Shown piece after piece: positions 3,634-16,709 of a DNA stretch of 64,000 nt. The notes under the pieces were generated by a model. It searched no databases and was not told where the DNA came from. It worked only from the letters and a program-made list of their open reading frames with translations. The stretch's first letter is position 1, and the number at the start of each line of letters is the position of its first letter. The position numbers and the translations under genes were made by a program. The stretch is from Chloroflexota bacterium (GTDB taxonomy: Bacteria > Chloroflexota > Dehalococcoidia > Lucifugimonadales > UBA3495): the NCBI GenBank assembly GCA_009840135.1, contig VXOH01000036.1, forward strand, positions 1,720-65,719, read 5' to 3'.

Positions 3634-4269
3634 ATGGTGGAGAATGCTCAACCGCAGGCCAATGGGGCAGACCCGGTTCGGGTGATTGTCTGGTACGACT
3701 ATATTTGACCCTGGTGCTACGTCGGCCTGGAGAGGGTTGACAAGTTGGGCCAGGATTACAACATTGCGGTGGAGGGTCGGGCGTATCTGCTGCGCCCCGA
3801 TACCCCGAAGGATGGGCTGCTGCGTCAGCCCCGTTCCGGTGAGACGGAGGATGAGCTCAGCGAGCCCATCCGGTCCCAGATTCGGGAAGCAAACCTGATA
3901 ATGAAGCCGCCCCAGGTGACACCCAACACCGTCTATGCCCTGGAGGCTACTGAGTACGCCCAGCAGCATGGCAAGTTCATGGAGTTCCACCATGCAGCAT
4001 ATAAGGCGTACTGGGAAGACCGGAAAGACCTGGGAAAGATCGAGGTACTGGCGGAGATAGCGAAGTCTGTTTCCCTGGATGCCGATGAAATGGTTCAATG
4101 CCTTGAAACTCGCGAACTTACGAACCTGGTAATGGGGCAATACCAGGAAGCACTACAGCAGGGAATCCGCGGCATCCCCACCTTTGTAGTTGGGAATCTG
4201 CTCTTTACCGGCGCTCACCCTTATGAAATTTTCAAGTCGGCCATGAACCAGTACCTGGAATCCGGTTAA
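3634..4269 (+). CDS. FrnE/DsbA-like thiol:disulfide oxidoreductase with predicted selenocysteine (UPWC redox motif; TGA at 3706-3708)
   Basis: The ORF track calls only 3745-4269 (TTG start), which lacks the N-terminal strand and active site. The same frame extends upstream to ATG 3634, preceded by GGAGG 3623-3627. It reads MVENAQPQANGADPVRVIVWYDYI[TGA]PWCYVGLERVDKLGQDYN..., matching the DsbA/FrnE W.DY.CP.CY.G motif with TGA at the first Cys. The C-terminus has GIRGIPTFVV and the restored length is 211 aa. Confidence 0.72.
3724..3751 (+). promoter_or_regulatory. Candidate bacterial SECIS-like hairpin for the TGA at 3706
   Basis: GGCCUGG (3724-3730) can pair with UUGGGCC (3745-3751): 4 G-C plus 3 G-U pairs. 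The 14-nt loop contains GGGUUG. The stem starts 16 nt after the UGA. Paired by eye only, not thermodynamically folded. Confidence 0.35.
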
Positions 4270-4399: not shown

Positions 4400-4489
4400 C
4401 CAAATGCAATTTGTTACAGAATTCACGAACTTTTCCTCCGCCGGAATCCTCTCTGACTTGAGGTGGATGGGGCCAAGGAGCCCAAGGTG

Positions 4490-4993
4490 ATGGATGGGCT
4501 GAAAGAAAGAATCAGAAGGGCCGTCCACAATCAACCTCAACCCACAGTTACCATCCTCTCGTCCCTGTTGTCAGTTGAGGACGAGCTTGGCTACATTCCC
4601 AGAGAAGCCGTCGAAGAGGTTGCCGGTTATAACCGGGTAACGGTAAACGACGTATGGGCAGTAGTCTCCTTCTATCCCAATTTCAGGACCGTGCCCCCCT
4701 GTGAGCATCGTATCGAAGTTTGCTGGGGACCCTCCTGCCACCTGGTCGGAGCAATGCCGGTAATCGAATCAGTGCTTGAGGCTGCGGGACTGGCAGAAGA
4801 GGGAGACACGCCCGACGGGAAGTTGACGGTTCGCTATAACACGTGCCTGGGCGCCTGTGCCCTGGCGCCCGTAATGTCCATTGATCATCACCTGGTGGGG
4901 CGTGCGGACCCGAAAAAGGGCAGGGAACTGGTCGGCCGGGCTCTGGATAACAACAGCGGCGACCCACACGAAGGGGCGGGTTTCCGCGGTTAG
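4490..4993 (+). CDS. nuoE: NuoE-like [2Fe-2S] thioredoxin-fold subunit (24-kDa type)
   Basis: Motifs ILSSLL.VEDELGYIP, FYPNF, CWGPSCHLVG and CLGACALAPV (the 4 Cys of the 2Fe-2S site). The maximal ORF starts at GTG 4463. AAGGAG (4475-4480) favours GTG 4487 or ATG 4490 as the start. Confidence 0.85.
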   Translation: MDGLKERIRRAVHNQPQPTVTILSSLLSVEDELGYIPREAVEEVAGYNRVTVNDVWAVVSFYPNFRTVPPCEHRIEVCWGPSCHLVGAMPVIESVLEAAGLAEEGDTPDGKLTVRYNTCLGACALAPVMSIDHHLVGRADPKKGRELVGRALDNNSGDPHEGAGFRG

Positions 4994-5031
4994 GCGGCTG
5001 CCTCAGTGGCCGACACTCGCATGCAGCGACG

Positions 5032-6756
5032 ATGACAGTGACCTTTAACGATATCAAGGAAAAAGCCGACGCCAGATGGAACGAATTGAACTCTGTCCGT
5101 CCGTGGATACGGATAGGTACGGCTCTTTGCGGCCAGGCGGCGGGCGCCGAGGAAGTTGCCGATGCCTTCGACTCAGAACTTGAGGCGCGGGGCTTTGACG
5201 CCACGGTAAGCCGTGTCGGATGCCTGGGCCTCTGCTATGCCGAGCCCCTGGTGGACATTCTCGTACCCGGCCGGGGACGGGTAGTTTACGGCAACGTAGA
5301 TGTTGACATGGTCTCGGACCTGGTTGAGGATCACCTAAAGACAGGCCAGCCTGTTACGGACAATGTTATGGGCTGTCGCGCCCTGGGCTATGTCGGAGAG
5401 GAAATTGATGGGGAACTGGAGTCCCTGGACCAGCACCCCATGCGGGCCAGGGAGCAAAGAATCGCCCTGCGGAACGCCGGTCACATTGACCCCCTGGACA
5501 TTTATCAATATGTCGCCAACGGCGGCTATCATGCGCTGAATCGCGCTCTTACCGAGATCACCGCGGCAGATGTGCTGGAAGAGGTGAATGTTTCGGGATT
5601 GCGAGGGCGAGGCGGCGCCGCTTTTCCTGCCGGTACCAAGTGGCGGTTTCTGGCGGGCTCCAACGCTCCCGACAAGTACATTCTATGCAACTGCGAGGAA
5701 GGTGATCCTGGCGCCTTCAACGACAAGGGGATTCTGGAAAGCGACCCGCATACAGTGGTCGAGGGAATCATCCTGGCGGGGTACGCCACCGGGGCAAACC
5801 ACGGCTACATTTTTATCAGGCATGGTCACGACGGACCCATAGACCGTACCAAGGCAGCCATTGCCCAGGCTTATGAACTGGGATTGCTGGGGGAAAACAT
5901 CCTGGGGTCGGATTTTACCTTTGACCTGGAAGTGGCACTGACGGGAGATTCCTACGTTTCCGGCGAAGAGACCGCCCTTATGGAGGCAATAGAAGGCAGC
6001 CGCGCCATGCCCAGATACCGGCCTCCTTTTCCGGCCCAGGTTGGTGTTTTCGGAAAGCCCACCAACATCAACAACGTCAAAACCATGGCTTACGTACCCG
6101 AGATTGTTGCCAGGGGTGGCGAGTGGTTCGCCGGCATTGGCCACGACAAGAGCACCGGAACCGCCATTCTCTGCCTATCGGGCAACCTGAAATATACGGG
6201 CATGGTGGAAATTCCCATGGGCGTGAATCTTAACGAGGTCCTGTATGAAGTGGCCGGAGGAGTGCCGGGGGGAAAGCAATTGAGCTTCCTTCAGACCGGT
6301 GGCCCGTTGGGCGGCGTGCTGAGCGCCGACGCCACTGACCTGGTGCTGGACTTTGACATTTTTCGCACCGCCGGGGCAATACTGGGTTCCGGAGGCGTTA
6401 TTGCGGCTGATGAAGACACCTGTGTAGTTGACCTGACCAGGGTGTTGATCGCTTTCTGCCAGTATGAGTCATGTGGCAAGTGTTTTCCCTGCCGTATGGG
6501 CATGAGCCACATGCTGGAGGTCCTGGAACGAATCTGCCGGCTGGAAGGCACTTCGGATGACCTGGCGCTGATGAGCAGTATCGGGGAGAATATGCAGGCG
6601 GGATCGCTTTGCGGTCACGGTCAGCTGGGGTTCAATCCGGTAGCTTCTGCCCTTCGTTATTTCCCGGACCAGTTCCAGACGCACATTGTAGAGAAACGGT
6701 GCCCCACCGGGCGTTGCCAAGCGCCCCGCTTTGCTCCCAGTCTCAGTCGCAGATAG
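5032..6756 (+). CDS. nuoF: NuoF-like NADH-binding FMN/[4Fe-4S] subunit with an N-terminal thioredoxin-like 2Fe-2S extension (HoxF/FdsB/HydB-type architecture)
   Basis: 574 aa. GLRGRGGAAFPAGTKW (NADH/FMN site), CNCEEGDPGAF, ESCGKCFPCRMG and SLCGHGQ. The extra N-terminal domain carries CGQAAGA...VGCLGLC. Confidence 0.88.
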   Translation: MTVTFNDIKEKADARWNELNSVRPWIRIGTALCGQAAGAEEVADAFDSELEARGFDATVSRVGCLGLCYAEPLVDILVPGRGRVVYGNVDVDMVSDLVEDHLKTGQPVTDNVMGCRALGYVGEEIDGELESLDQHPMRAREQRIALRNAGHIDPLDIYQYVANGGYHALNRALTEITAADVLEEVNVSGLRGRGGAAFPAGTKWRFLAGSNAPDKYILCNCEEGDPGAFNDKGILESDPHTVVEGIILAGYATGANHGYIFIRHGHDGPIDRTKAAIAQAYELGLLGENILGSDFTFDLEVALTGDSYVSGEETALMEAIEGSRAMPRYRPPFPAQVGVFGKPTNINNVKTMAYVPEIVARGGEWFAGIGHDKSTGTAILCLSGNLKYTGMVEIPMGVNLNEVLYEVAGGVPGGKQLSFLQTGGPLGGVLSADATDLVLDFDIFRTAGAILGSGGVIAADEDTCVVDLTRVLIAFCQYESCGKCFPCRMGMSHMLEVLERICRLEGTSDDLALMSSIGENMQAGSLCGHGQLGFNPVASALRYFPDQFQTHIVEKRCPTGRCQAPRFAPSLSRR

Positions 6757-6799
6757 CTTACCGGCCCTTCAGGCTCAGCCTGAATTGTGAGAAGTATAG

Positions 6800-9637
6800 A
6801 TGCCCGATAACATTACCATTTCCATTGACGGGGTGGAGATAAAGACCCAACCGGGGAAAATGGTGCTGGAAGCGGCTATCGAAGCGGGAATATACATCCC
6901 TTATCTGTGCTACCACCCGGGCATGGACCCCTTTGCCGCCTGCAGGATGTGCGTAGTCTCCGTGGAAGGAGGCAGGGGGTTTCCTGCGGCTTGTACCCTT
7001 CCCGCAGCCGACGGAATGCGCATCCGAAGCGACTCCGAGGACGTGGATGAACTGCGCAGGTCGGTGATGCAGATGCTCATTGCCGAGCATCCTAATGGCT
7101 GTCTTACATGTCACCGTGTGGACATCTGTGGCCCCAGCGATGTTTGCCTAAGGCACGTTTCTGTGAACGACCGTTGTGTCACTTGCCCCAAGAACGAGCG
7201 CTGTGAGTTCAAGGACACGGTTCGCTACCTGGGAATGGAGCTGGAATCCCCTCTGAATTACAAATACAAGCAGGTGCCGCTGGAGGTCTCAGATCCCTTT
7301 TACGACAGGGATTACAACCTGTGCATTGCCTGCGGGCGTTGCGTGCGGGCGTGCGAAGAAATACGTGGCGACGACGCCATTTGTTTCACCGAACGTTCCG
7401 GCAAGGCCCTGATTGGGACGTCGTTTGGCTCTTCCCTGCTGGAGTCGGGCTGCGAATTTTGCGGCGCCTGCATTGATGTGTGCCCGGTGGGCGCGCTGGT
7501 GGAGCGGGACCACAAATGGGAGAAGCCCCGCAGCGTGGAGCAGACCATCTGTCCCCATTGCCCGGTGGGTTGCCAACTTAACCTGGAGCTAGGAGATTCC
7601 GGAGAACTTGTCCGGGTGGTCCCCGAAATTAACGCTCCCTCAAACAGGGGACAGGCTTGCTTTAAGGGGAAATTCGGTCTTGAGTTTCTTAACAGCGGGG
7701 AACGACTGGACAAGCCGCTGATTCGAAAGAACGGGGAGTTGGTGGAATCAAACTGGGATGATGCGCTGGACCTGGTGGCCTCGCGACTGCAGGAATACAA
7801 GGGCGAAGCATTTGCCCTGTTAACGGCCCCTGATTCCACCAACGAAGAGATGTACCTGGCCCAGAAGTTCGCCAGGGTTGCCATGGGCACCAACAGCGTG
7901 GACGTCACTTCGAACCTTTATCCCGAGCTTACCCAGGGGTTGCTTCGAGCTCTGGGCCACGGCGGGGCGACAAATCCCATTTGGGACCTGGAGAAGGCCG
8001 GCAGCGTTCTGGTTTTCAACTCGAACCTGACCGAGGACAACAATGTCCTAGCGCTGCCCATCAAGCGTGCGGCCAAGAACGGGGCCTCCCTCATAATCAT
8101 TGACTCGCGGGAGGTTGAACTCACTCGCCATGCCGATATGTGGCTCCGACCGAGGCCCGGAACCGAGTTGTTGCTTCTCGGCGGTATCCTGCGGGAGGTG
8201 CTCGACCAGGGATTGGTGAAGGAACAATGGGTGGAAGAAAACTGTGAAGATCCCGCTACCCTCTTCTATTACCTGCACAATCTGGACCTGGACGAGGTAG
8301 CCGCGACAACCCAGGTGAGCAGGAACTCCATGGCTCTGGCTGCCGGACAATTCGGTGGCGCGGAATCGAGCGCGGTGTGCTACGGCCTTAACAATGTACC
8401 GTCAGAATTGCAGCGGGATTGCGTAAGCGCCTTGTTGGACCTGGTCCTTTTAACCGGCAACGTGGGCAGGGCCGGGGCTGGCCTTTACCCGGTAAGGCAG
8501 GGAGCCAACGAGCAGGGCTCCTGGGACGTTGGCTGCATTCCCGGCCGGCTGCCCGGTGGCGCTTCTCCGAGAGATGAACGGCGCCGTTCCGAACTTGAAG
8601 AGTTGCTCAATTGTTCCCTTCCCCAGAATCGCGGCTTTGGTGTAACCAATTTTGCCGAGGCCGCCAGGGACGGCATTTTGAAGGCCTTGTTCCTGGTAGG
8701 CGACAGTCCTAACCTTACCAATGGCAACCTGGGCGACGCGGTGACCGCGCTGCAGGAGTTGGACTTCCTGGTGGTCATGGATGCGTTTCTGTCGCCGGCT
8801 GCCCGGGTCGCCGATGTGGTGCTGCCTCGCCGGACCTTCGTGGAAAAGGATGGCACTTTCACGAACCTTGAACGGAGGATTCAACGGCTGAAGCCCGTCC
8901 GGGAATGTGAAGACCAGGGACCGGAAACCGAAAGTGCGGTGTTTGGGCGGCTGGCCCAAAAAATGGGCGCCATGGGGTTTGACTTTCCGTCGGCTGGCGC
9001 AGTTATGGATGAGATTGCTCGGGTGGCGCCATCCTACGCCGGCGTTTCCTATGATCGCCTGGAATCGGAATCCAGGGTCGTGCTGAGGACCGGGTTGGAA
9101 AGCCCCAAGCCTACCCAGATGCTGTACGCCGGACGGGAATACCGCGGTTTACAGTGGCCCGTCTCCGAAGATACAGGGTCTGATACGCCCGTGCTGTACC
9201 AGGAGAGCTTTCCCCTGGGCAAGGCCAATTTAATCGCACCTGAGTTCAGAGTTCCGGAAGACCTGACTGATCCGGACTACCCCCTGTGGTTGGTTCCAGG
9301 CAGGGTGCTCTTGCAGCGGGACCGGGAAACCCGCGTCGAGTTGGAGCAAAGTTCCCGGCGGAACCGTATAGTTCGGGAAGAATTGGTAGAGCTCAGCGGT
9401 ATTGATGCCTCCGCCCAGTCCATACTGGATGGTGACTCGGTTCGTCTGGAGACACCAAGGGGTAGCCTGGCCGGTGTGGCTCGAGTCAGCGATGAGTTGC
9501 CATCGGGAATGGTGGCAATAACTGGCCTGTTCGGACAATTGGCGGTGGATCTTCAGGAATCTGATCATCCCGACCCCATGTCCCAGGCTCCAGGGTTGCA
9601 CGTGACCCCGGCCAGGCTGTTTAAAGTCGCAGAATAG
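6800..9637 (+). CDS. nuoG: NuoG-like Fe-S subunit with a degenerate molybdopterin-oxidoreductase domain (no Cys/Sec Mo ligand)
   Basis: 945 aa. N-terminal 2Fe-2S (YLCYHPGMDPFAACRMCVV), CIACGRCVRACEE, CEFCGACIDVCPVGAL and ICPHCPVGCQLNL. Where formate dehydrogenases carry C-A-R-x-C/U-H, this protein has VTSNLYPE, so it is not a catalytic FDH. No internal TGA. Confidence 0.8.
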   Translation: MPDNITISIDGVEIKTQPGKMVLEAAIEAGIYIPYLCYHPGMDPFAACRMCVVSVEGGRGFPAACTLPAADGMRIRSDSEDVDELRRSVMQMLIAEHPNGCLTCHRVDICGPSDVCLRHVSVNDRCVTCPKNERCEFKDTVRYLGMELESPLNYKYKQVPLEVSDPFYDRDYNLCIACGRCVRACEEIRGDDAICFTERSGKALIGTSFGSSLLESGCEFCGACIDVCPVGALVERDHKWEKPRSVEQTICPHCPVGCQLNLELGDSGELVRVVPEINAPSNRGQACFKGKFGLEFLNSGERLDKPLIRKNGELVESNWDDALDLVASRLQEYKGEAFALLTAPDSTNEEMYLAQKFARVAMGTNSVDVTSNLYPELTQGLLRALGHGGATNPIWDLEKAGSVLVFNSNLTEDNNVLALPIKRAAKNGASLIIIDSREVELTRHADMWLRPRPGTELLLLGGILREVLDQGLVKEQWVEENCEDPATLFYYLHNLDLDEVAATTQVSRNSMALAAGQFGGAESSAVCYGLNNVPSELQRDCVSALLDLVLLTGNVGRAGAGLYPVRQGANEQGSWDVGCIPGRLPGGASPRDERRRSELEELLNCSLPQNRGFGVTNFAEAARDGILKALFLVGDSPNLTNGNLGDAVTALQELDFLVVMDAFLSPAARVADVVLPRRTFVEKDGTFTNLERRIQRLKPVRECEDQGPETESAVFGRLAQKMGAMGFDFPSAGAVMDEIARVAPSYAGVSYDRLESESRVVLRTGLESPKPTQMLYAGREYRGLQWPVSEDTGSDTPVLYQESFPLGKANLIAPEFRVPEDLTDPDYPLWLVPGRVLLQRDRETRVELEQSSRRNRIVREELVELSGIDASAQSILDGDSVRLETPRGSLAGVARVSDELPSGMVAITGLFGQLAVDLQESDHPDPMSQAPGLHVTPARLFKVAE

Positions 9638-9752: not shown

Positions 9753-10532
9753 ATGACCATTGGGGAAAACACCGTTGTGGCCGGTGAGGGCGACGATTCT
9801 CGCCCTGCTTACCGTACCGACAGCTTGCCGCAAGCCAACCTGGTCTATCGCAGGGATATAACTGAAGACTTGATGGTTATCAAGCTTGAGCCCCTGGACG
9901 GGCCCTTTTCCTTTAAGCCCGGCCAGTATTGCACCCTGGGAAAGGAAGGCGTAGAACGGGCTTACTCCATAGTCTCGGCTCCCCATGAACCGCAACTGGA
10001 GATTTTTGTCGAGCTGGTGCCCGACGGTGAACTGACGCCTAAGATGTGGCGGCTTCAACCCGGGGAGAACATGTCCCTCAGGCCCCGCCCCAAGGGGATA
10101 TTTACCCTCAACGAGAAGGTTCACCACCACCTGATGGTGGCCACGGTTACCGGTGTTGGACCCTATTTGAGCATCATACGCGAGTACCTGCACCAGGGTG
10201 GCGAGGGCCATCACTTCTATGTGCTTTTGGGGGCCAGCTACCAGGACGAGCTTACCTACGACACTGAGTTGGTCAGGCTGGCCGAGGAACACCCGGAATG
10301 CGTAAAGTTTGTGGCAACTGTCAGCCGGCCCCAGGAAGAGCGTAACGTGGACTGGGAGGGTGAAAAGGGAAGGGTCAACAATATCGTCCTGAAATACCTG
10401 GAAGAGTTCAACCTGCCGAAGGACGACACCATGGTTTATACCTGCGGCCACCCGGGCATGATTGAGGACGTAAGGGAGCAGGTGACACCGCTGGGCTGGC
10501 AGTTCAAGGAAGAGCGATTCTGGAAAGAGTAG
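9753..10532 (+). CDS. fpr: Ferredoxin/flavodoxin-NADP(+) reductase (FNR family)
   Basis: 259 aa. RAYSIVS (FAD RxYS motif), MVATVTGVGPYLS (NADP GxGxxP) and YTCGHPGM. RBS GAGGTGAAGG lies upstream of the ATG. Confidence 0.8.
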   Translation: MTIGENTVVAGEGDDSRPAYRTDSLPQANLVYRRDITEDLMVIKLEPLDGPFSFKPGQYCTLGKEGVERAYSIVSAPHEPQLEIFVELVPDGELTPKMWRLQPGENMSLRPRPKGIFTLNEKVHHHLMVATVTGVGPYLSIIREYLHQGGEGHHFYVLLGASYQDELTYDTELVRLAEEHPECVKFVATVSRPQEERNVDWEGEKGRVNNIVLKYLEEFNLPKDDTMVYTCGHPGMIEDVREQVTPLGWQFKEERFWKE

Positions 10533-10790: not shown

Positions 10791-13469
10791 GTGGCGGTTT
10801 TGGGCCGTTCACGGCACAGCAGTATTTCATTGACTCCCGTTCGCCGCCAATATCTCAAGATTAAAAATGCCCATCCGGACGCGGTGGTGTTGTTCCGGCT
10901 GGGCGACTTTTACGAGACCTTTGACGATGACGCGAAACTGGCATCCCGGGAACTGGAGATTACCCTCACTTCTCGCACCATGGGAAAGAACCTGAAGGTA
11001 CCGATGGCCGGCGTTCCCGCTCATTCTCTGGAACCCTACTTGGCCAGGCTCATCAAGAAGGGGCATAAAGTCGCCATTTGCGAGCAGTTGACCGATCCTG
11101 CCAAATCAAAGGGGTTGGTTGAGCGGGATGTGGTTCGGGTGGTTACACCCGGAACCGTTCTGGAGTCTTCGTTGCTGGAACAGGATGCCAACAATTACCT
11201 GGCATCGGTGGTAGAAGACGGAGAGCAGGTCGGCCTGGCTTACGTGGACATCAGCACCGGCGAATTCTCCGCTACCCAGTTGGGTGTAAGCCGAGTTAAG
11301 GCGGAGTTGCTGCGGATTTCTCCGGCCGAAGTACTTATCCCCGCTTCCGATGAACTTCCCGGCTGGATGGCGAATGAGGCCGTCACGGAGGGCGTTAATA
11401 ACGACGGGTTGGAGGGAGGCCTATCCTTCCGAATCTCCCATACCAACTTGGCCGCCTTTGACTTCGACCTGGCTGCCAGCGCCCTGCTGGACTACTACGA
11501 CATTCGTACCCTTGAGTCCTTTGGTTGCGATGAACTTCCCCTGGCCACCCGGGCCGCCGGAGCTATTGTAGACTACCTTTCCCAGAACTATCGCGGAGCC
11601 GCCCCCCGCCTGTCCGCCCTGGCAGTCTATTCCTCCGAATCCTTCATGGAGCTGGATGCCCAGACCCGCCGCAACCTGGAACTCTTTCAGGCGGGGCGGT
11701 GGGATAATCGCCAGCTGTCCCTGTTTTCCTCCCTGGATATGTCGCGGACGCCAATGGGCGGCCGGTTGCTGCGACGTTGGCTTGGGCAGCCACTGCTGGA
11801 AATAGAGCCTTTGCGGCAACGGCTGGACGCGGTCGAGTATTTCTTCACCGGGTCCCTTTGCCGTTCCAGGGTCAGGGACCTTCTTGCCGGCATGGCTGAT
11901 ATGGAGCGGATCCTGGGACATATCCGCACCGAAACCGTGGCGCCAAGGGAGTTGCTGGCGCTGAAATCAGCCGTTGAAGCAGCCGGCAATCTGCAAGCCG
12001 AGTTGGAATCCGATGTTTCTACCGGGGTGGAATGGCTGCATAGTCAACTGTCCCCGGTGGCGGAGGTTTCCAGCCTGATTGAACAGGCCATCAACCCTGA
12101 ACTCTCGGGCGTCCTGGGCGAGGGCAACGTAATCCGGACGGGATTTTCGCCCCAACTGGACGAATTGAAACTGGCCTCCAGCGACGCACGGTCATTTATC
12201 GCCGGCCTGGAGCAAAGGGAAAGGGACCGGACGGGCATCCGAAATCTCAAAGTGGGGTACAACCAGGTTTTCGGCTACTACCTGGAAGTTAGCAAAGCTA
12301 ACCTGGCCCAGGTGCCAGAAGATTACGTTCGGCGCCAGACCCTTACCAACGGTGAGCGGTATATAGTTCCGGAACTGAAGGAGTACGAAGCCCTGGTCCT
12401 GAACGCCAGGGAACGAGTTGAAGAGCTGGAGCGAAGTCTTTACCGGCAGGTCTGCGCCCAGATCGGAAACTATGCCGAATCCATAATCAGATTGGCATCT
12501 GCGGTGGCATGCGTTGATGTCTTTTCCTCCCTGGCGGAGGTGGCGACCCAGCAGGGTTACGTTCGTCCGCAGCTGGATATGGGCGATGCTCTTTACATAA
12601 AGAATGGACGCCATCCGGTGGTGGAACGCCACCTGGGAGCCGGTAGTTTTGTCCCTAATGACCTGGCTCTGTCCAACGAGGACACCCGTCTCGTGGTCCT
12701 GACCGGTCCCAACATGGCCGGCAAATCAACTTACATTCGTCAGGCCGGTATCATAGTGCTGATGGCGCAAATTGGCAGCTATGTTCCGGCGGATGAGGCG
12801 AGAATAGGAGTGGTGGACCGCATATTCACCAGGGTCGGCCTGCAGGACGATTTGGCCACCGGGCAGTCCACCTTCATGGTGGAGATGGTGGAAACGGCGG
12901 CCATACTCAATCAGGCCACACCCCGTTCACTGGTAATTCTTGACGAGGTGGGCAGGGGCACCAGTACCTACGATGGCATGTCAATTGCCCGTTCGGTAAT
13001 TGAGCACCTGCACAATGACCCCAAGCTGGGCTGCAAGTCCCTTTTTGCCACCCACTACCATGAGCTGACCGAGCTGGCGAATACGCTGCCAAGGGTAAGG
13101 AACTTCAGCGTTGCAGTGAAGGAGGAGGAAGGCAGGGTGGTCTTCCTGCACCGTATTACGCCCGGAGGAGCAGACCGAAGCTATGGCGTGCATGTCGCCC
13201 AGCTGGCGGGACTGCCCCGCGCGGTGGTCAACCGGGCCCGCGAGGTGCTGGAAGAAATGGAATCAAGCGGCCGCAAAGACAAGGGCCGTTCCAGGTCCAG
13301 AAGAAGGGAACCCGTTGTGCAAATGTCATTCTTCGGTACGGACCAACCCCTGACCGACGCCGTGCTTTCCTTGGATGTTGCCAACCTTACTCCCCTGGAA
13401 GCTATCAACAAGCTGTACGAACTACAGGAAAGAGCCAGAAACGACTCAGGACAAGCGCCGGAGCATTGA
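10791..13469 (+). CDS. mutS: DNA mismatch repair protein MutS
   Basis: 892 aa. TPVRRQYLKIK..HPDAVVLFRLGDFYETF, Walker A GPNMAGKST, STFMVEM and DEVGRGTSTYDG. Confidence 0.95.
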   Translation: MAVLGRSRHSSISLTPVRRQYLKIKNAHPDAVVLFRLGDFYETFDDDAKLASRELEITLTSRTMGKNLKVPMAGVPAHSLEPYLARLIKKGHKVAICEQLTDPAKSKGLVERDVVRVVTPGTVLESSLLEQDANNYLASVVEDGEQVGLAYVDISTGEFSATQLGVSRVKAELLRISPAEVLIPASDELPGWMANEAVTEGVNNDGLEGGLSFRISHTNLAAFDFDLAASALLDYYDIRTLESFGCDELPLATRAAGAIVDYLSQNYRGAAPRLSALAVYSSESFMELDAQTRRNLELFQAGRWDNRQLSLFSSLDMSRTPMGGRLLRRWLGQPLLEIEPLRQRLDAVEYFFTGSLCRSRVRDLLAGMADMERILGHIRTETVAPRELLALKSAVEAAGNLQAELESDVSTGVEWLHSQLSPVAEVSSLIEQAINPELSGVLGEGNVIRTGFSPQLDELKLASSDARSFIAGLEQRERDRTGIRNLKVGYNQVFGYYLEVSKANLAQVPEDYVRRQTLTNGERYIVPELKEYEALVLNARERVEELERSLYRQVCAQIGNYAESIIRLASAVACVDVFSSLAEVATQQGYVRPQLDMGDALYIKNGRHPVVERHLGAGSFVPNDLALSNEDTRLVVLTGPNMAGKSTYIRQAGIIVLMAQIGSYVPADEARIGVVDRIFTRVGLQDDLATGQSTFMVEMVETAAILNQATPRSLVILDEVGRGTSTYDGMSIARSVIEHLHNDPKLGCKSLFATHYHELTELANTLPRVRNFSVAVKEEEGRVVFLHRITPGGADRSYGVHVAQLAGLPRAVVNRAREVLEEMESSGRKDKGRSRSRRREPVVQMSFFGTDQPLTDAVLSLDVANLTPLEAINKLYELQERARNDSGQAPEH

Positions 13470-13661
13470 TCAGGCAGCCGCGAGGATGTTTGTTTTACGG
13501 GACAACCGGAATCATTGCCTTGCATTTCAAAAAGAGCCCGGCTTCAGTAATCCGGTGCAGGCGGATTCCGCGATTTCGAATCTCTGGAATCGGCCCGCCG
13601 GATTCTCGATAGTTCACCCCGGATTGCAGGGGCAGGGACAACCCAATGATTTGGAGGACTT

Positions 13662-14018
13662 ATGAGCTCAGCCGTGTTTTACTGGTGGCCGCGTTGATCA
13701 TCCTGTCGGAAAGCGAGAGAGTTGCTCTTGCAGAAAGGACTGGAACTGGAGGAACGGGACTACTTTAAAGACCCCCTTAACGAAACGGAACTCATGGATC
13801 TGGCTTCGATGGCGTCTCTTTCTGACCTGTTCGCGTGGCGCAGTCCCAGTTTCAAAAAATTGGGCCTGCCCAGCCAGGACATTTCCGAGCAGCAGATGGT
13901 CAAGTTGATCCTGGATGAGCCCAGGTTGCTGCGCCGGCCGATCACCAGGCTGGCAGACAGACTGATCATCGGGTCGAGCCCAAAGCAGATGGAGCAGGAA
14001 CTGGCCAACCTGCCGTAA
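13662..14018 (+). CDS. ArsC/Spx/YffB-family small redox protein with predicted selenocysteine (USSC motif; TGA at 13695-13697)
   Basis: The ORF track calls only 13722-14018 (TTG). The same frame extends to ATG 13662, preceded by GGAGGA 13653-13658. It reads MSSAVFYWWPR[TGA]SSCRKARELLLQKGLELEERDYFKDPL..., matching the family motif (I)YG.K.C..CRKA..WL...G.....D. with TGA at the first Cys. Restored length is 118 aa. Confidence 0.72.
13713..13731 (+). promoter_or_regulatory. Candidate SECIS-like hairpin for the TGA at 13695
   Basis: GCGAGAG (13713-13719) pairs with CUCUUGC (13725-13731): 7 bp including one G-U. The loop is AGUUG. The stem starts 16 nt after the UGA. Confidence 0.45.
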
Positions 14019-14416
14019 ACTTGGTCAGGCGAAGTGAATTCGGTCGGCAATTCGATGCTCGTACAGCATCCGTAACCTGCCGGCTTGGAGGCCGGCAAGG
14101 CCCCCCCGCTCGTATAGGGTGGGTCGCGGCGCCAAAAGTTAAATGTGCCGTGCCGTGGGCGGAATGCCGTGTTTTTCGTAGGCAAGGGAAACCCAGGTTC
14201 GTTGGCATTGGGATTTTCCCTTACCTGCTTGAATGACAGGTATTGGGGCACTGGCGCCCGCAGCTACCGGGCTCGTTTGTATTTCACCGGAGCCTGTCGT
14301 AGACTGTTGCCTGTTGCCTGATGTGCCACCAAATATTTGATTTAATTGTTGTTTTTTTATCAACTCCTGTGATAATCTCTGTCATACCTTAAACTGCGGG
14401 GGACAAACGTCGGACC

Positions 14417-14854
14417 ATGAAGATTTTCTTCGATGTTGACTACACCATTCTTGGCTTGGATGACACCCTTCGCCCCGGAACCAAGGAGACTTTTCAGAAG
14501 TTGTTGGATGACGATCACGAGATCTTTATCTGGTCCGGCATGGGAGAGCGCTGGGAAGTTATAGAGAAACACAAGCTGAACCCATACATCAGCGGGGTAT
14601 ATGAAAAGCCCACGCACCATTTTCACGAACGGCTGGAGGAGCTGAAGATTCCCTTTGAGCCTGAGTTTGTGATTGACGATTATCCCGAAGTTGTTGCGGC
14701 TTTCGGCGGCGCCTGGGTCCCTCCCTATTTCTTTGCCCGCAATGTGGACCAGCAGATGGACCGGGTGTACCAGATCGTTTGCGATTTTGCCAAGGATGGC
14801 ACGTCCGAAGACAAGCAATATCGCGCCAAGGGAACTGTGCTGCCACTCTTCTAG
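14417..14854 (+). CDS. Small cap-less HAD-like hydrolase
   Basis: 145 aa. IFFDVDYTILG (DxDxT nucleophile motif), IFIWSG and VIDDYPE. Confidence 0.6.
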   Translation: MKIFFDVDYTILGLDDTLRPGTKETFQKLLDDDHEIFIWSGMGERWEVIEKHKLNPYISGVYEKPTHHFHERLEELKIPFEPEFVIDDYPEVVAAFGGAWVPPYFFARNVDQQMDRVYQIVCDFAKDGTSEDKQYRAKGTVLPLF

Positions 14855-14942
14855 ACTTATTCAATGACTCGGCTCTTGTGAAGCGGTCCCGTCAATAGGC
14901 GCCTCCCTTCGCAGACCCAAGATGCCCTGAGGACGGGCCACC

Positions 14943-16709
14943 ATGTCTGTACGGATTCTCCCCCCGGAATTGGCCTCGCAGATCGCCGCTGGCGAAGTAG
15001 TGGAACGACCGGTTTCCGTGGTCAAGGAACTGTTGGAAAACTCTCTGGATGCCAACGCATCCCGCATTTCGGTGGAAATTAAGGGTGGCGGCGTCGAGAG
15101 CATACGCATCGTTGATAACGGTTACGGAATACCTTCCAACGAGGTGGTATTGGCTTTTCAGCGCCATGCCACCAGCAAGGTCGAGTCCCGAAATTCCCTT
15201 GATGCCATTGCAACCCTGGGTTTCCGGGGTGAAGCCCTCCCCAGCATAGCCGCGGTTTCCCGAATGTCCATGGTCACGCGTTTCCGTGACTGTGAGTCAG
15301 GGTTTGGGGCCGATTTCCTTTGGGGTGGCCTGGTGAAAGAGGGGGCCCAGGGCTGTCCCCCAGGAACAGTAGTCCAGGTTTCCGACCTTTTCGGAAACTT
15401 GCCCGCCCGCCGCCGGTTTCTCAAGTCCGCCACCGCCGAGACAGGACGAATTCACGACCTTCTGGCCAGATACGCCCTGGCTTACCCGGAAGTAGCGTTT
15501 CAGCTTCGCGTAGGGGACCGCCAGTCCCTTTCGACTCCCGGGAACGGCATTTCTGCAGACGCGGTGCTGGCGGTTTACGGGTCGGAAGTTAGTTCTAACT
15601 TGCTGGAAATTACCGGCGAAGGGCCGGAGTCGGCCTACTCTGTAGATGGCTTCATCGGAAACCCCGGGTTGAATCGGGCCAACCGCACCTATATGACATT
15701 TTTCGTCAACCGCCGTTGGATTCAGAGCCGGATGCTGACCTTCGCCCTGGAAGAGGCCTATCACGGACTGCTGCCCGAAAGACGCTATCCCCTGGCCATC
15801 GTCAATATTTCCGTGCCATTTGAAGATGTGGACGTGAACTCCCATCCTGCCAAGCGGGAGGTCAGATTTCACCAGGATGGCAGAGTTTATTCGGCGCTGC
15901 AAAGGGCGGTGAGAGAGTCCCTGGTGGCATCATCGCCGGTGCGTGCGATGCGGGCTCCCGGCGCACGTTCCTATCAGGAACCTCCGCAATCAGACACTTC
16001 GCCGCGATTCTTCACCAGTCCTTTTGACTCCAGGTCACTTGTGTCGGGGGCGGCTCCGGCCTTCGGCAGTGAAAGCAGGGAAGGAGCTCCGATCCAGGGA
16101 AGCGGGCCTGCAGATGCGGCCTTGACTCCCCGGCAAGCCTTGCCTTCGCTGAGAGTCGTAGGACAGGTGAGGTTGACTTATATAGTGGCAGAAAGCCCGG
16201 ATGGGATGTACCTGGTGGACCAGCACGCAGCTCATGAGAGGGTCCTATTTGACCGAATAATCCGGAAGGGTGTCAACAGCGGCAGCCAATCGCAATCACT
16301 CCTGGCTCCCGTGTCCGTTGATTTGTCGCCCAGCCAGATAGCCACTCTGACGAGCAACCGGGATTTCCTGGTGGAATACGGCTTCAAACTGGAGGAGTTT
16401 GGCGGCAACAGTTATCTTGTTCGGGCAGTCCCTTCCTTCTTAACGAGAGGCAACCCCGCCAAATCGCTGGTAGATATTCTTGACATGGTTGCCTTCGAGG
16501 GCGCCATAGACGATCAGGAACAGGCCGTGGCGGCCTCCCTGGCCTGCCACGCTGCCATCCGGGCCGGCCAGTCTATGACTGAGACTGAGATGAGAGCCTT
16601 GCTGGAGCAGCTGGAGGTCACCGACAGCCCCCACACCTGTCCTCACGGGCGGCCAACAGTCATCCACTTCAGCTCCTATCACATGGAACGAGAGTTCGGC
16701 AGGCGGTAA
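14943..16709 (+). CDS. mutL: DNA mismatch repair protein MutL
   Basis: 588 aa. IAAGEVVERPVSVVKELLENSLDA, DNGYGI, LGFRGEAL and C-terminal CPHGRPT. Confidence 0.95.
   Translation: MSVRILPPELASQIAAGEVVERPVSVVKELLENSLDANASRISVEIKGGGVESIRIVDNGYGIPSNEVVLAFQRHATSKVESRNSLDAIATLGFRGEALPSIAAVSRMSMVTRFRDCESGFGADFLWGGLVKEGAQGCPPGTVVQVSDLFGNLPARRRFLKSATAETGRIHDLLARYALAYPEVAFQLRVGDRQSLSTPGNGISADAVLAVYGSEVSSNLLEITGEGPESAYSVDGFIGNPGLNRANRTYMTFFVNRRWIQSRMLTFALEEAYHGLLPERRYPLAIVNISVPFEDVDVNSHPAKREVRFHQDGRVYSALQRAVRESLVASSPVRAMRAPGARSYQEPPQSDTSPRFFTSPFDSRSLVSGAAPAFGSESREGAPIQGSGPADAALTPRQALPSLRVVGQVRLTYIVAESPDGMYLVDQHAAHERVLFDRIIRKGVNSGSQSQSLLAPVSVDLSPSQIATLTSNRDFLVEYGFKLEEFGGNSYLVRAVPSFLTRGNPAKSLVDILDMVAFEGAIDDQEQAVAASLACHAAIRAGQSMTETEMRALLEQLEVTDSPHTCPHGRPTVIHFSSYHMEREFGRR

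What the first reader, a model, noticed from the sequence alone, without database searches (positions are those of the whole stretch)
13662..14018. Second recoded gene: ArsC/Spx-family protein with a U-S-S-C active site between mutS and mutL
**What the sequence shows.**
- The ORF track call (13722-14018) begins at LLQKGLELEERDYFKDPL, which is after the active site of ArsC/Spx/YffB-type proteins.
- Upstream in frame lie GGAGGA (13653-13658), ATG 13662, then MSSAVFYWWPR-TGA(13695-13697)-SSCRKARELL.
- The family hallmark is (Y/F)....C-x-x-C-(R/K)KA...L, so the TGA replaces the first Cys of CxxC.
- A clean 7-bp hairpin, GCGAGAG-AGUUG-CUCUUGC (13713-13731), starts 16 nt after the UGA and carries a GUU in its apical loop. 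This resembles the bacterial SECIS architecture.
- The restored protein is 118 aa, the normal size for the family.
Basis: partly seen in the sequence, partly recalled or inferred. Interest (0 to 1): 0.75.

Follow-up and report, generated by a model that had tools for sequence, protein, structure and literature searches.

The report
Mis-called ArsC/Spx-like selenoprotein gene
This is a real gene for a small redox protein whose in-frame TGA almost certainly encodes selenocysteine, a well-supported annotation fix for a whole bacterial lineage but an example of a selenoprotein type already described.

Summary
The observation and the interpretation both hold. Window 13662-14018 (+) is a 118-codon gene of the ArsC/Spx/YffB thioredoxin-fold family, with an in-frame TGA (13695-13697) at the first Cys of the CxxC motif (U-S-S-C). 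Pfam ArsC aligns across the TGA. All 80 related Dehalococcoidia/SAR202 genomes examined carry TGA at this codon, with protein-level conservation on both sides. The 7-bp hairpin at 13713-13731 is conserved (99.4% of cells paired, 4 of 7 pairs with compensatory changes, loop A-G-U invariant). It meets every published bacterial SECIS criterion. A Cys homologue has TGC there and keeps an intact hairpin. TGA is an ordinary stop for 9 of 32 window genes, so the genetic code is not reassigned. A second UxxC selenoprotein gene (DsbA-like, TGA 3706) lies in the same window. The Sec machinery is not on this 67-kb scaffold and could not be tested in this genome. UxxC ArsC-like selenoproteins have been catalogued since 2008, and Dehalococcoidia are known to be selenoprotein-rich, so this is a new member of a known kind. 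The protein fits neither canonical Spx nor arsenate reductase, and its biochemical function is inferred only. The main practical result is that 77 of 78 database homologues are truncated gene calls.

The parts
13653..13658 (+). Shine-Dalgarno-like GGAGGA, 3 nt upstream of the ATG
   Evidence: Read directly. An SD-like motif precedes the start codon in 59 of 81 orthologues.
13662..14018 (+). Full coding sequence of the ArsC/Spx-fold selenoprotein: 118 codons including Sec12, ATG start, TAA stop at 14016-14018
   Evidence: Translation. Pfam ArsC PF03960 covers residues 7-111, E = 6.6e-18. PDB Spx matches at E about 1e-12 over residues 5-110. tblastn matches in 80 genomes reach query residues 1-6.
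13692..13694 (+). Arg11 codon CGU immediately 5' of the Sec codon; possible context element
   Evidence: CGU in 75 of 81 orthologues, although CGU is only 89 of 823 Arg codons elsewhere in the same genes.
13695..13697 (+). Sec codon UGA (residue 12), aligned with Spx Cys10 and ArsC Cys12
   Evidence: TGA in 80 of 80 related loci plus the window. TGC in the Cys homologue P0005. The column is invariant Cys in alignment A3.
13704..13706 (+). Cys15 codon (UGU), the resolving Cys of the U-x-x-C motif
   Evidence: Cys in 81 of 81 with TGT/TGC variation. Aligns with Spx Cys13.
13713..13731 (+). Bacterial SECIS hairpin: 5' arm 13713-13719, apical loop AGUUG 13720-13724, 3' arm 13725-13731. There are 22 nt between the UGA and the loop.
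   Evidence: -9.8 kcal/mol, z = -2.95. 99.4% of cells paired against 35-65% in slid controls, and 4 of 7 pairs have compensatory changes. The same hairpin is predicted independently by RNAalifold. Loop A29/G30/U31 are invariant, and the loop Glu codon is GAG in 81 of 81 against 472:456 GAG:GAA elsewhere. Meets all bSECIS criteria given in PMC13188914.
13722..14018 (+). Truncated ORF (TTG start, 98 aa) that gene callers report in place of the real gene
   Evidence: 77 of 78 database homologues are 90-105-aa calls that cover about 81% of the query.
10791..13469 (+). mutS, conserved upstream neighbour (context; ends in an ordinary TGA stop)
   Evidence: Pfam MutS_I-V. Upstream of the Sec gene in 66 of 80 loci. 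Stop codon TGA.
14417..14854 (+). 145-aa HAD-like ORF (DxDxT motif), conserved downstream neighbour (context)
   Evidence: Present in 78 of 80 loci at 66-96% identity. Sequence. Weak Hydrolase_3 hit.
14943..16709 (+). mutL, conserved downstream neighbour (context)
   Evidence: Pfam MutL_C, DNA_mis_repair and HATPase_c_3. Present in 76 of 80 loci.

Best explanation
Window 13662-14018 encodes a 118-residue cytoplasmic protein with the ArsC/Spx/YffB thioredoxin-like fold. Its UGA codon 12 is decoded as selenocysteine. The mechanism is the standard bacterial one. The 7-bp hairpin with loop A-G-U-U-G, 22 nt downstream of the UGA and inside the coding sequence, acts as a SECIS element. It recruits SelB.GTP.Sec-tRNA(Sec) to the ribosome when the UGA reaches the A site. 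The product carries a U12-S-S-C15 motif at the beta1/alpha1 junction. There, Sec (attacking) and Cys15 (resolving) can cycle between the selenol/thiol state and a selenenylsulfide. The protein therefore most likely works as a redox-active selenol/thiol oxidoreductase or redox sensor. Shown here: the gene structure, conservation of the UGA and of coding sequence on both sides, covariation in the hairpin, the Cys/Sec pair, the fold, and the fact that UGA is otherwise a stop codon. Inferred: SelB-dependent Sec insertion (the machinery was not seen in this genome), selenenylsulfide chemistry, and the physiological substrate or partner.
For: The Pfam ArsC alignment spans the TGA. The best solved relatives are Spx, with U aligned to Cys10 of C10xxC13RKA. 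TGA is present in 80 of 80 Dehalococcoidia/SAR202 loci, with xYWWPR upstream and SSCRK downstream. Third codon positions vary while first and second are fixed on both sides of the TGA, and Ser+1 switches between TCN and AGY codons. Hairpin: 99.4% paired, 4 of 7 pairs compensatory. For example, the synonymous Arg change AGR->CGR tracks the Leu->Val change UUG->GUG at the pairing partner in 18-20 sequences with no exception. Loop G is invariant at a synonymous site. All published bSECIS constraints are met: loop 5 nt, stem 7 bp, G at loop position 2 followed by U, spacing 22 nt, -9.8 kcal/mol. Cys homologue P0005 has TGC, the same CGU context, an intact hairpin and the same downstream neighbour. 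In the wider family, 71 representatives are CxxC, 63 are calls truncated just after the site and 2 are WxxC. TGA terminates 9 of 32 window genes, including mutS. A second UxxC selenoprotein gene (DsbA-like) lies in the same window. The AF2 model (pLDDT 90.6) puts the Sec-equivalent Cys at the N-terminus of helix 1. Literature: the UxxC ArsC-like selenoprotein family is known (PMC2398784; PMC9312934; PMC13188914). Dehalococcoidia MAGs with 46-49 selenoproteins are recorded (PMC13326102).
Against: No selA, selB, selD or tRNA-Sec is in the window, on its 67-kb scaffold or in the 60 related loci scanned. The Sec-decoding trait of this particular genome is therefore inferred, not shown. There is no Rfam hit for the hairpin, which is expected because bacterial SECIS elements are short and diverse. 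The 80 loci are the best 80 of 273 relatives and are phylogenetically related, so 80 of 80 is not an unbiased frequency, and the compensatory changes represent fewer independent events than cells counted. No protein-level evidence exists. The function is unassigned: the protein scores below the cutoff of every curated subfamily model.
Confidence: 0.9

Rival explanations
1. The TGA is a genuine stop. The real gene is the annotated 98-aa ORF starting at TTG 13722, and the upstream 11 codons are a conserved leader peptide or uORF.
For: This is what gene callers output for the window and for 77 of 78 homologues. A start codon is available downstream.
Against: The truncated product would lack beta1 and the whole CxxC active site of the fold, whereas the Pfam ArsC and Spx alignments run continuously through the TGA. 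The stretch between the TGA and the TTG (SSCRKAREL) evolves as coding sequence, with TCN/AGY serine switches and third-position variation. Full-length Cys forms exist. The downstream starts are not conserved (M, V or L at varying positions).
Confidence: 0.02
2. The gene is a pseudogene, or the TGA is a sequencing or assembly error of a TGC/TGT Cys codon.
For: TGA is a single substitution away from TGC, and one relative (P0005) has TGC.
Against: TGA is present in 80 of 80 independent assemblies, including complete long-read chromosomes, with purifying selection on both sides and a covarying downstream hairpin.
Confidence: 0.01
3. The UGA is read through as a standard amino acid (Trp, Cys or Gly), either by near-cognate suppression or by a reassigned code, and the hairpin merely stimulates read-through without SelB or selenium.
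For: The Sec machinery was not observed in this genome. Two database entries translate the site as Trp.
Against: TGA is a normal terminator for 9 of 32 window genes, including the adjacent mutS. The position is the redox-active Cys of a CxxC motif, exactly where Sec/Cys pairs occur. The hairpin satisfies the SelB-type bSECIS model, including the loop G-U. The class is documented as selenoprotein-rich. The WxxC entries are most simply code-4 gene calls.
Confidence: 0.04
4. Functional rival: the protein is a bona fide Spx-type regulator that binds the RNA polymerase alpha-CTD, with a Sec-based redox switch, rather than an oxidoreductase.
For: The best sequence matches are Spx, both in the PDB (E about 1e-12) and in NCBIfam TIGR01617 (68.4 bits). 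The C/U-x-x-C-R-K-A motif and LLRRP are shared. Spx R60 is conserved.
Against: The score is below the TIGR01617 (75.05) and Spx (123) cutoffs. Spx Gly52, needed for alpha-CTD contact (established knowledge of Spx), aligns to Ser or a gap. The roughly 13-residue C-terminal tail that Spx uses for YjbH/ClpXP control is absent. Spx is characterised in Firmicutes, not Chloroflexota.
Confidence: 0.15
5. Functional rival: the protein is a glutaredoxin-coupled arsenate reductase (ArsC) that uses Sec as the nucleophile.
For: It is a member of Pfam ArsC. Sec aligns with the catalytic Cys12 of R773 ArsC, and Arg94 is conserved. UxxS arsenate-reductase selenoproteins are known.
Against: TIGR00014 scores 55.3 against a cutoff of 106. 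ArsC Arg107 aligns to Ser106, and Arg60 does not align to an Arg. The motif is UxxC, not the C/UxxS of ArsC. No ars genes (arsB, acr3, arsR) are nearby; the neighbours are mutS, a HAD-like ORF and mutL.
Confidence: 0.07

Closest known systems
UxxC 'arsenate reductase-like' / 'Arsenate reductase 2 (cd03032)' selenoproteins of the marine and prokaryotic selenoproteome catalogues (PMC2398784; PMC9312934; PMC13188914, NF041106)
   Same: ArsC/Spx-fold protein of about 110-120 aa. Sec replaces the first Cys of an N-terminal CxxC. An in-ORF bacterial SECIS hairpin follows. Cys-containing homologues exist. Identified only by bioinformatics, with function unknown.
   Different: This protein scores only 32.6 bits on the curated NF041106 model (cutoff 85), so it is a different subfamily from the curated exemplar. 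It forms a Dehalococcoidia/SAR202 clade with a fixed mutS-X-HAD-mutL position.
Spx (Bacillus subtilis / Firmicutes redox-sensing RNA polymerase-binding regulator; PDB 1Z3E, 3GFK, 6GHB)
   Same: Best sequence and fold match. Identical placement of C/U-x-x-C-R-K-A at the beta1/alpha1 junction. R60 and LLRRP are conserved.
   Different: Sec instead of Cys10. No Gly52 equivalent. Lacks the C-terminal tail. Below the family cutoffs. Different phylum.
R773 / E. coli ArsC (glutaredoxin-coupled arsenate reductase; PDB 1I9D)
   Same: Same fold (TM about 0.76). The nucleophile position (Cys12) and Arg94 are conserved.
   Different: Arg107 and probably Arg60 are not conserved. Has a second Cys (UxxC rather than CxxS). 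No ars operon context.
E. coli fdhF-type bacterial SECIS / bSECISearch consensus model
   Same: Hairpin inside the ORF just 3' of the UGA. G-U in a small apical loop. Spacing is within 16-37 nt and MFE is at or below -7.5 kcal/mol.
   Different: A minimal 7-bp stem with no bulged U and no conserved lower stem. The sequence is unrelated to fdhF. No Rfam family matches.

Membership tests
Bacterial selenoprotein gene (Sec-UGA plus bSECIS) | In-frame UGA at a position occupied by Cys in homologues | tested here: met
   P0005 has Cys (TGC) and 71 of 150 wider-family representatives are CxxC at the aligned site.
Bacterial selenoprotein gene (Sec-UGA plus bSECIS) | Protein-level conservation on both sides of the UGA across species | tested here: met
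   80 of 80 loci. xYWWPR-U-SSCRK is conserved with third-position variation and a TCN/AGY Ser switch.
Bacterial selenoprotein gene (Sec-UGA plus bSECIS) | bSECIS model: apical loop 3-9 nt, upper stem 4-16 bp, G in the first two loop positions, 16-37 nt from UGA to loop, MFE <= -7.5 kcal/mol (PMC13188914) | tested here: met
   Loop AGUUG (5 nt, G at position 2 followed by U), 7 bp, 22 nt, -9.8 kcal/mol. Covariation supports the stem.
Bacterial selenoprotein gene (Sec-UGA plus bSECIS) | Host genome encodes selA, selB, selC (tRNA-Sec) and selD | not testable with these tools
   None found in the 64-kb window, its 67-kb scaffold or the 60 related 12-kb loci scanned. Indirect support: a second selenoprotein gene in the window and selenoprotein-rich Dehalococcoidia in BSepDB.
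Bacterial selenoprotein gene (Sec-UGA plus bSECIS) | Selenium actually incorporated at the UGA | not testable with these tools
   Needs 75Se labelling or mass spectrometry.
Pfam ArsC family (PF03960; ArsC/Spx/YffB superfamily) | Score above the gathering threshold over the full domain | tested here: met
   65.2 bits against 24, residues 7-111 = profile positions 1-77 of 79. Fold confirmed with TM 0.7-0.8 to Spx, YffB and ArsC.
NCBIfam NF041106 'ArsC family (seleno)protein' | Score at or above the curated cutoff (85 bits) | tested here: not met
   32.6 bits.
Spx/MgsR regulators (TIGR01617; NF002459) | Score at or above the curated cutoff | tested here: not met
   68.4 against 75.05 for TIGR01617, and 64.8 against 123 for NF002459.
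Spx/MgsR regulators (TIGR01617; NF002459) | N-terminal CxxC redox switch | tested here: met
   U12-S-S-C15 aligns with C10-T-S-C13.
Spx/MgsR regulators (TIGR01617; NF002459) | Gly52 at the RNAP alpha-CTD interface and a C-terminal degradation/adaptor tail | tested here: not met
   Gly52 aligns to a gap (HMMER) or to Ser (MAFFT). The protein ends about 13 residues before the Spx C-terminus.
Spx/MgsR regulators (TIGR01617; NF002459) | Binds RNA polymerase and alters transcription | not testable with these tools
   Requires experiment.
Glutaredoxin-coupled arsenate reductase ArsC (TIGR00014) | Score at or above the curated cutoff (106 bits) | tested here: not met
   55.3 bits.
Glutaredoxin-coupled arsenate reductase ArsC (TIGR00014) | Catalytic Cys12 plus the Arg60/Arg94/Arg107 triad | tested here: not met
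   The Cys12 equivalent (Sec) and Arg94 are present. Arg107 aligns to Ser106 and Arg60 is not aligned to an Arg (the ArsC sequence was verified against 1i9d).
Glutaredoxin-coupled arsenate reductase ArsC (TIGR00014) | ars operon context | tested here: not met
   The neighbours are mutS, a HAD-like ORF and mutL in 66-78 of 80 loci.

The most novel reading that the evidence does not exclude
The gene sits at a fixed position, mutS - Sec protein - HAD-like ORF - mutL, across a whole class, and it resembles Spx. It could therefore be a selenium-based redox sensor or regulator that is functionally coupled to DNA mismatch repair. One possibility is that it tunes MutS/MutL expression or activity to oxidative state. 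That would be a new role for a selenoprotein and for the Spx/ArsC fold outside Firmicutes.
Probability: 0.06. Interest if true: 0.65.

Novelty: new member of a known kind. Interest (0 to 1): 0.3.

Why it matters
In practice, this gene is mis-annotated almost everywhere. 77 of 78 database homologues, and the calls on the source scaffold, are N-terminally truncated proteins that lack the active site. The neighbouring DsbA-like selenoprotein is truncated in the same way. Restoring these genes matters for selenoproteome counts and for inferring redox metabolism in SAR202/Dehalococcoidia, an abundant ocean and sponge-symbiont lineage. The 81-sequence alignment also gives an unusually clean example of a minimal bacterial SECIS that covaries inside a highly conserved coding region. 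In it, amino-acid changes are compensated by synonymous changes at the pairing partner, and the CGU codon upstream of the UGA is conserved. Such an alignment is useful for training SECIS and selenoprotein predictors. Conceptually it adds no new kind of system.

Tried and rejected
1. Rfam at gathering threshold on the whole window, and at E <= 10 on 13600-13800: no hit. This is uninformative for short bacterial SECIS elements.

2. tRNA-Sec search in the window and in 60 related loci: none.

3. Pfam annotation of 30 window ORFs for SelA, SelB or SelD: none.

4. Extending beyond the window through the source contig: the scaffold is only 67,236 bp, less than 2 kb more on each side. The look-up of the right-end protein found nothing.

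5. A window-wide scan for other in-frame-TGA genes was mostly noise. The TGA at 20490 (GVIKGV-U-CLEC) was rejected as antisense low-complexity sequence of the 939-aa minus-strand gene. Only the DsbA-like gene at 3706 survived.

6. The 398-nt gap at 14019-14416 was checked for conserved elements or ORFs. Only about 80 nt upstream of orf145 are conserved, and only in 3 close relatives. Terminator-like hits were not above chance, and there were no sigma-70-like promoters.

7. The fold search cannot separate Spx, YffB and ArsC, which all score TM 0.7-0.8. Subfamily assignment therefore rests on sequence features.

8. The extended lower stem in the single-sequence MFE fold is not supported by the alignment, because RNAalifold keeps only the 7-bp hairpin.

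Full report
OBSERVATION. GGAGGA lies at 13653-13658, ATG at 13662, an in-frame TGA at 13695-13697 and the stop TAA at 14016-14018. The perfect 7-bp hairpin GCGAGAG-AGUUG-CUCUUGC lies at 13713-13731. Translation gives MSSAVFYWWPR*SSCRKARELLLQKGLELEERDYFKDPL..., 118 codons. A mechanical ORF list reports only 13722-14018 (TTG start, 98 aa).

FAMILY. With U written as C, Pfam ArsC (PF03960) matches residues 7-111 to profile positions 1-77 of 79 (E = 6.6e-18, 65 bits against a cutoff of 24), so the match runs straight through the TGA. The closest solved structures are Spx regulators (E about 1e-12), followed by putative ArsC and YffB proteins. The TGA aligns with Spx Cys10 in C10-T-S-C13-R-K-A and with the catalytic Cys12 of R773 ArsC (my recalled ArsC sequence was verified as identical to 1i9d). 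An AlphaFold model of the full-length Cys homologue P0005 (pLDDT 90.6) puts this residue at the beta1/alpha1 junction and the second Cys in the first helical turn, which is the classic thioredoxin-fold CxxC geometry. Foldseek returns Spx, YffB and ArsC at TM 0.7-0.8 and does not discriminate between them.

COMPARATIVE EVIDENCE FOR RECODING. A search of 5.8 billion proteins gave 78 homologues. Of these, 77 are calls of 90-105 aa covering about 81% of the query, and one (P0005, 123 aa) is full length and reads ...FYWWPRCSSCRKV.... A scan of one genome per species recovered 273 relatives. The best 80 are all Dehalococcoidia, SAR202 or Chloroflexota MAGs, several of them complete chromosomes, and the tblastn matches start at query residues 1-6. 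All 80 have TGA at the site, flanked by (F/L/M)YWWPR upstream and S-S/T-C-R/K-K downstream, and most have an ATG 11-12 codons upstream.

On both sides of the TGA, codon third positions vary (0.3-0.7) while first and second positions are nearly fixed. The serine after the TGA is encoded by either TCN or AGY. That pattern is the signature of selection on the protein, not on an untranslated leader.

TGA is an ordinary terminator for 9 of 32 confident genes in the window, including mutS just upstream, so a reassigned code is excluded.

THE HAIRPIN. In an ungapped 81-sequence alignment, the proposed helix is paired in 99.4% of cells, against 35-65% when the 3' arm is slid by 1-3 nt. Four of 7 pairs show changes on both sides. 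RNAalifold predicts the same 7-bp helix and nothing else.

The covariation cuts across the reading frame. The synonymous Arg change AGR->CGR (column 25) occurs exactly when codon +11 changes from UUG (Leu) to GUG (Val) (column 37), in 18-20 sequences with no exception. Ala->Val at +6 (C->U) is matched by UUG->UUA at +11. Arg->Lys at +7 (G->A) is matched by CUC->CUU at +10.

Loop positions A, G and U are invariant. The loop G is the third base of a Glu codon that is GAG in 81 of 81 sequences, while Glu elsewhere in these genes is GAG:GAA = 472:456.

The element meets every constraint of the published bacterial SECIS model: loop 3-9 nt, stem 4-16 bp, G in the first two loop positions (usually G[G/U]), 16-37 nt from the UGA, and MFE <= -7.5 kcal/mol (PMC13188914). 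The observed values are 5 nt, 7 bp, A-G-U, 22 nt and -9.8 kcal/mol (z = -2.95, 0 of 200 shuffles). The longer lower stem in the single-sequence fold is not conserved.

The Cys homologue P0005 has TGC, keeps the preceding CGU and an intact hairpin, and is followed by the same 145-aa ORF. This is most simply a recent Sec-to-Cys conversion with a fossil SECIS. The contig is short and comes from a single sample, so a base-call error cannot be excluded.

SEC-DECODING TRAIT. No selA, selB, selD or tRNA-Sec occurs in the window or in the 60 related 12-kb loci scanned. The source scaffold (ENA ERZ23491722 scaffold_346, 67,236 bp) extends less than 2 kb beyond the window, so this defining feature could not be tested for this genome. 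Indirect support comes from three observations:
- The window holds a second UxxC gene, a DsbA-like protein (3634-4269) with TGA at 3706-3708 (YDYI-U-PWC). Pfam DSBA matches across that TGA (E = 9e-31), the gene has its own downstream hairpin, and it is likewise truncated in the deposited gene calls.
- Dehalococcoidia MAGs with 46-49 selenoproteins are listed among the most selenoprotein-rich bacteria (PMC13326102).
- SelA and SelB co-occur in most sponge-symbiont bins (PMC5649159), and Chloroflexi were already scored as Sec-decoding in 2006 (PMC1794560).

WHAT IT IS NOT. The protein is below the cutoff of every curated subfamily model: TIGR01617 Spx/MgsR 68.4 against 75.05, NF002459 Spx 64.8 against 123, TIGR00014 ArsC 55.3 against 106, and NF041106 'ArsC family (seleno)protein' 32.6 against 85. 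Spx Gly52 aligns to a gap or to Ser, and the Spx C-terminal tail is missing. ArsC Arg107 aligns to Ser106, Arg60 is not matched by an Arg, and there is no ars context. It is therefore an unassigned subfamily of the ArsC/Spx superfamily. In the 150 nearest 50%-identity cluster representatives, 71 are CxxC, 63 are calls that begin at a start codon just after the site (putative Sec forms) and 2 read WxxC. Sec/Cys alternation at this position is therefore common.

MECHANISM. The most likely mechanism is SelB/SECIS-directed insertion of Sec at codon 12, giving a U-S-S-C redox centre that cycles between the selenol/thiol state and a selenenylsulfide. This makes the protein an oxidoreductase or a redox sensor. 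The gene model and the RNA element are shown here. The chemistry and the partner are inferred from the fold and from established knowledge of CxxC and UxxC thioredoxin-fold proteins.

CONTEXT. The order mutS, this gene, a 145-aa HAD-like ORF and mutL is kept in 66-78 of the 80 loci, and the HAD-like ORF is more conserved (66-96% identity) than MutS or MutL. Whether this reflects a functional link or just stable gene order in the class is unknown. The intergenic gaps in the window (192, 398 and 88 nt) do not argue for tight co-translation.

NOVELTY. UxxC ArsC-type selenoproteins are catalogued in three places: 'Arsenate reductase 2, cd03032, UxxC' with 42 GOS sequences (PMC2398784), and 'Arsenate reductase-like protein, UxxC' (PMC9312934; PMC13188914, NF041106). 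DsbA-like UxxC selenoproteins are listed in the same tables. This is a new, or at least uncurated, member of a known kind. The finding is correct and well supported, it is valuable as an annotation fix for the lineage, and it is of modest conceptual interest.

Noticed in passing
window 3634-4269 (+), TGA at 3706-3708: A second selenoprotein gene, DsbA-like, with the motif YDYI-U-PWC. Pfam DSBA (E = 9e-31) aligns across the TGA, and a stable hairpin has its loop 21-25 nt after the UGA. The deposited gene call on the source scaffold is truncated to 174 aa.
   Followed up: partly
window 14417-14854 (+): A 145-aa ORF with a HAD-type DxDxT motif (FFDVDYT). It is present between the Sec gene and mutL in 78 of 80 Dehalococcoidia loci at 66-96% identity, which is more conserved than the flanking MutS and MutL. 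It has only a weak Pfam Hydrolase_3 hit, and its function is unknown.
   Followed up: partly
window 13692-13694 and the equivalent codon in L001-L080: The Arg codon immediately 5' of the Sec-UGA is CGU in 75 of 81 genes, although CGU is only about 11% of Arg codons elsewhere in the same genes. This suggests a nucleotide-context requirement for Sec insertion or against termination.
   Followed up: no
L083 365-736 (Logan SRR13378643, 1382-bp contig): The Cys-form orthologue P0005 has TGC in place of TGA, with the CGU context and the SECIS hairpin (GUAAGGG-AGUUG-CUCUUAC) fully intact and the same 145-aa ORF downstream. This looks like a recent Sec-to-Cys conversion with a fossil SECIS, or possibly a base-call error.
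   Followed up: partly
window 10791-16709 and L001-L080: The gene order mutS, Sec gene, HAD-like ORF, mutL is conserved in most of the 80 Dehalococcoidia/SAR202 genomes. It is often preceded by an FdhA/NuoG-like gene (6800-9637) and an NAD-binding oxidoreductase (9753-10532).
   Followed up: partly
window 4463-9637 (+): A NuoE-like, NuoF-like and 945-aa FdhA/NuoG-like molybdopterin oxidoreductase cluster, probably an NAD-linked formate dehydrogenase. It has no in-frame TGA, so the catalytic subunit is apparently a non-Sec form even though the organism uses Sec elsewhere.
   Followed up: no
window 1-64000: The window is roughly positions 1720-65719 of ENA ERZ23491722 ENGE20-1_SAMN12347673_METAG-scaffold_346 (67,236 bp). 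GC content is 57%. There are no tRNA genes and no Rfam hits at gathering threshold anywhere in the 64 kb.
   Followed up: yes
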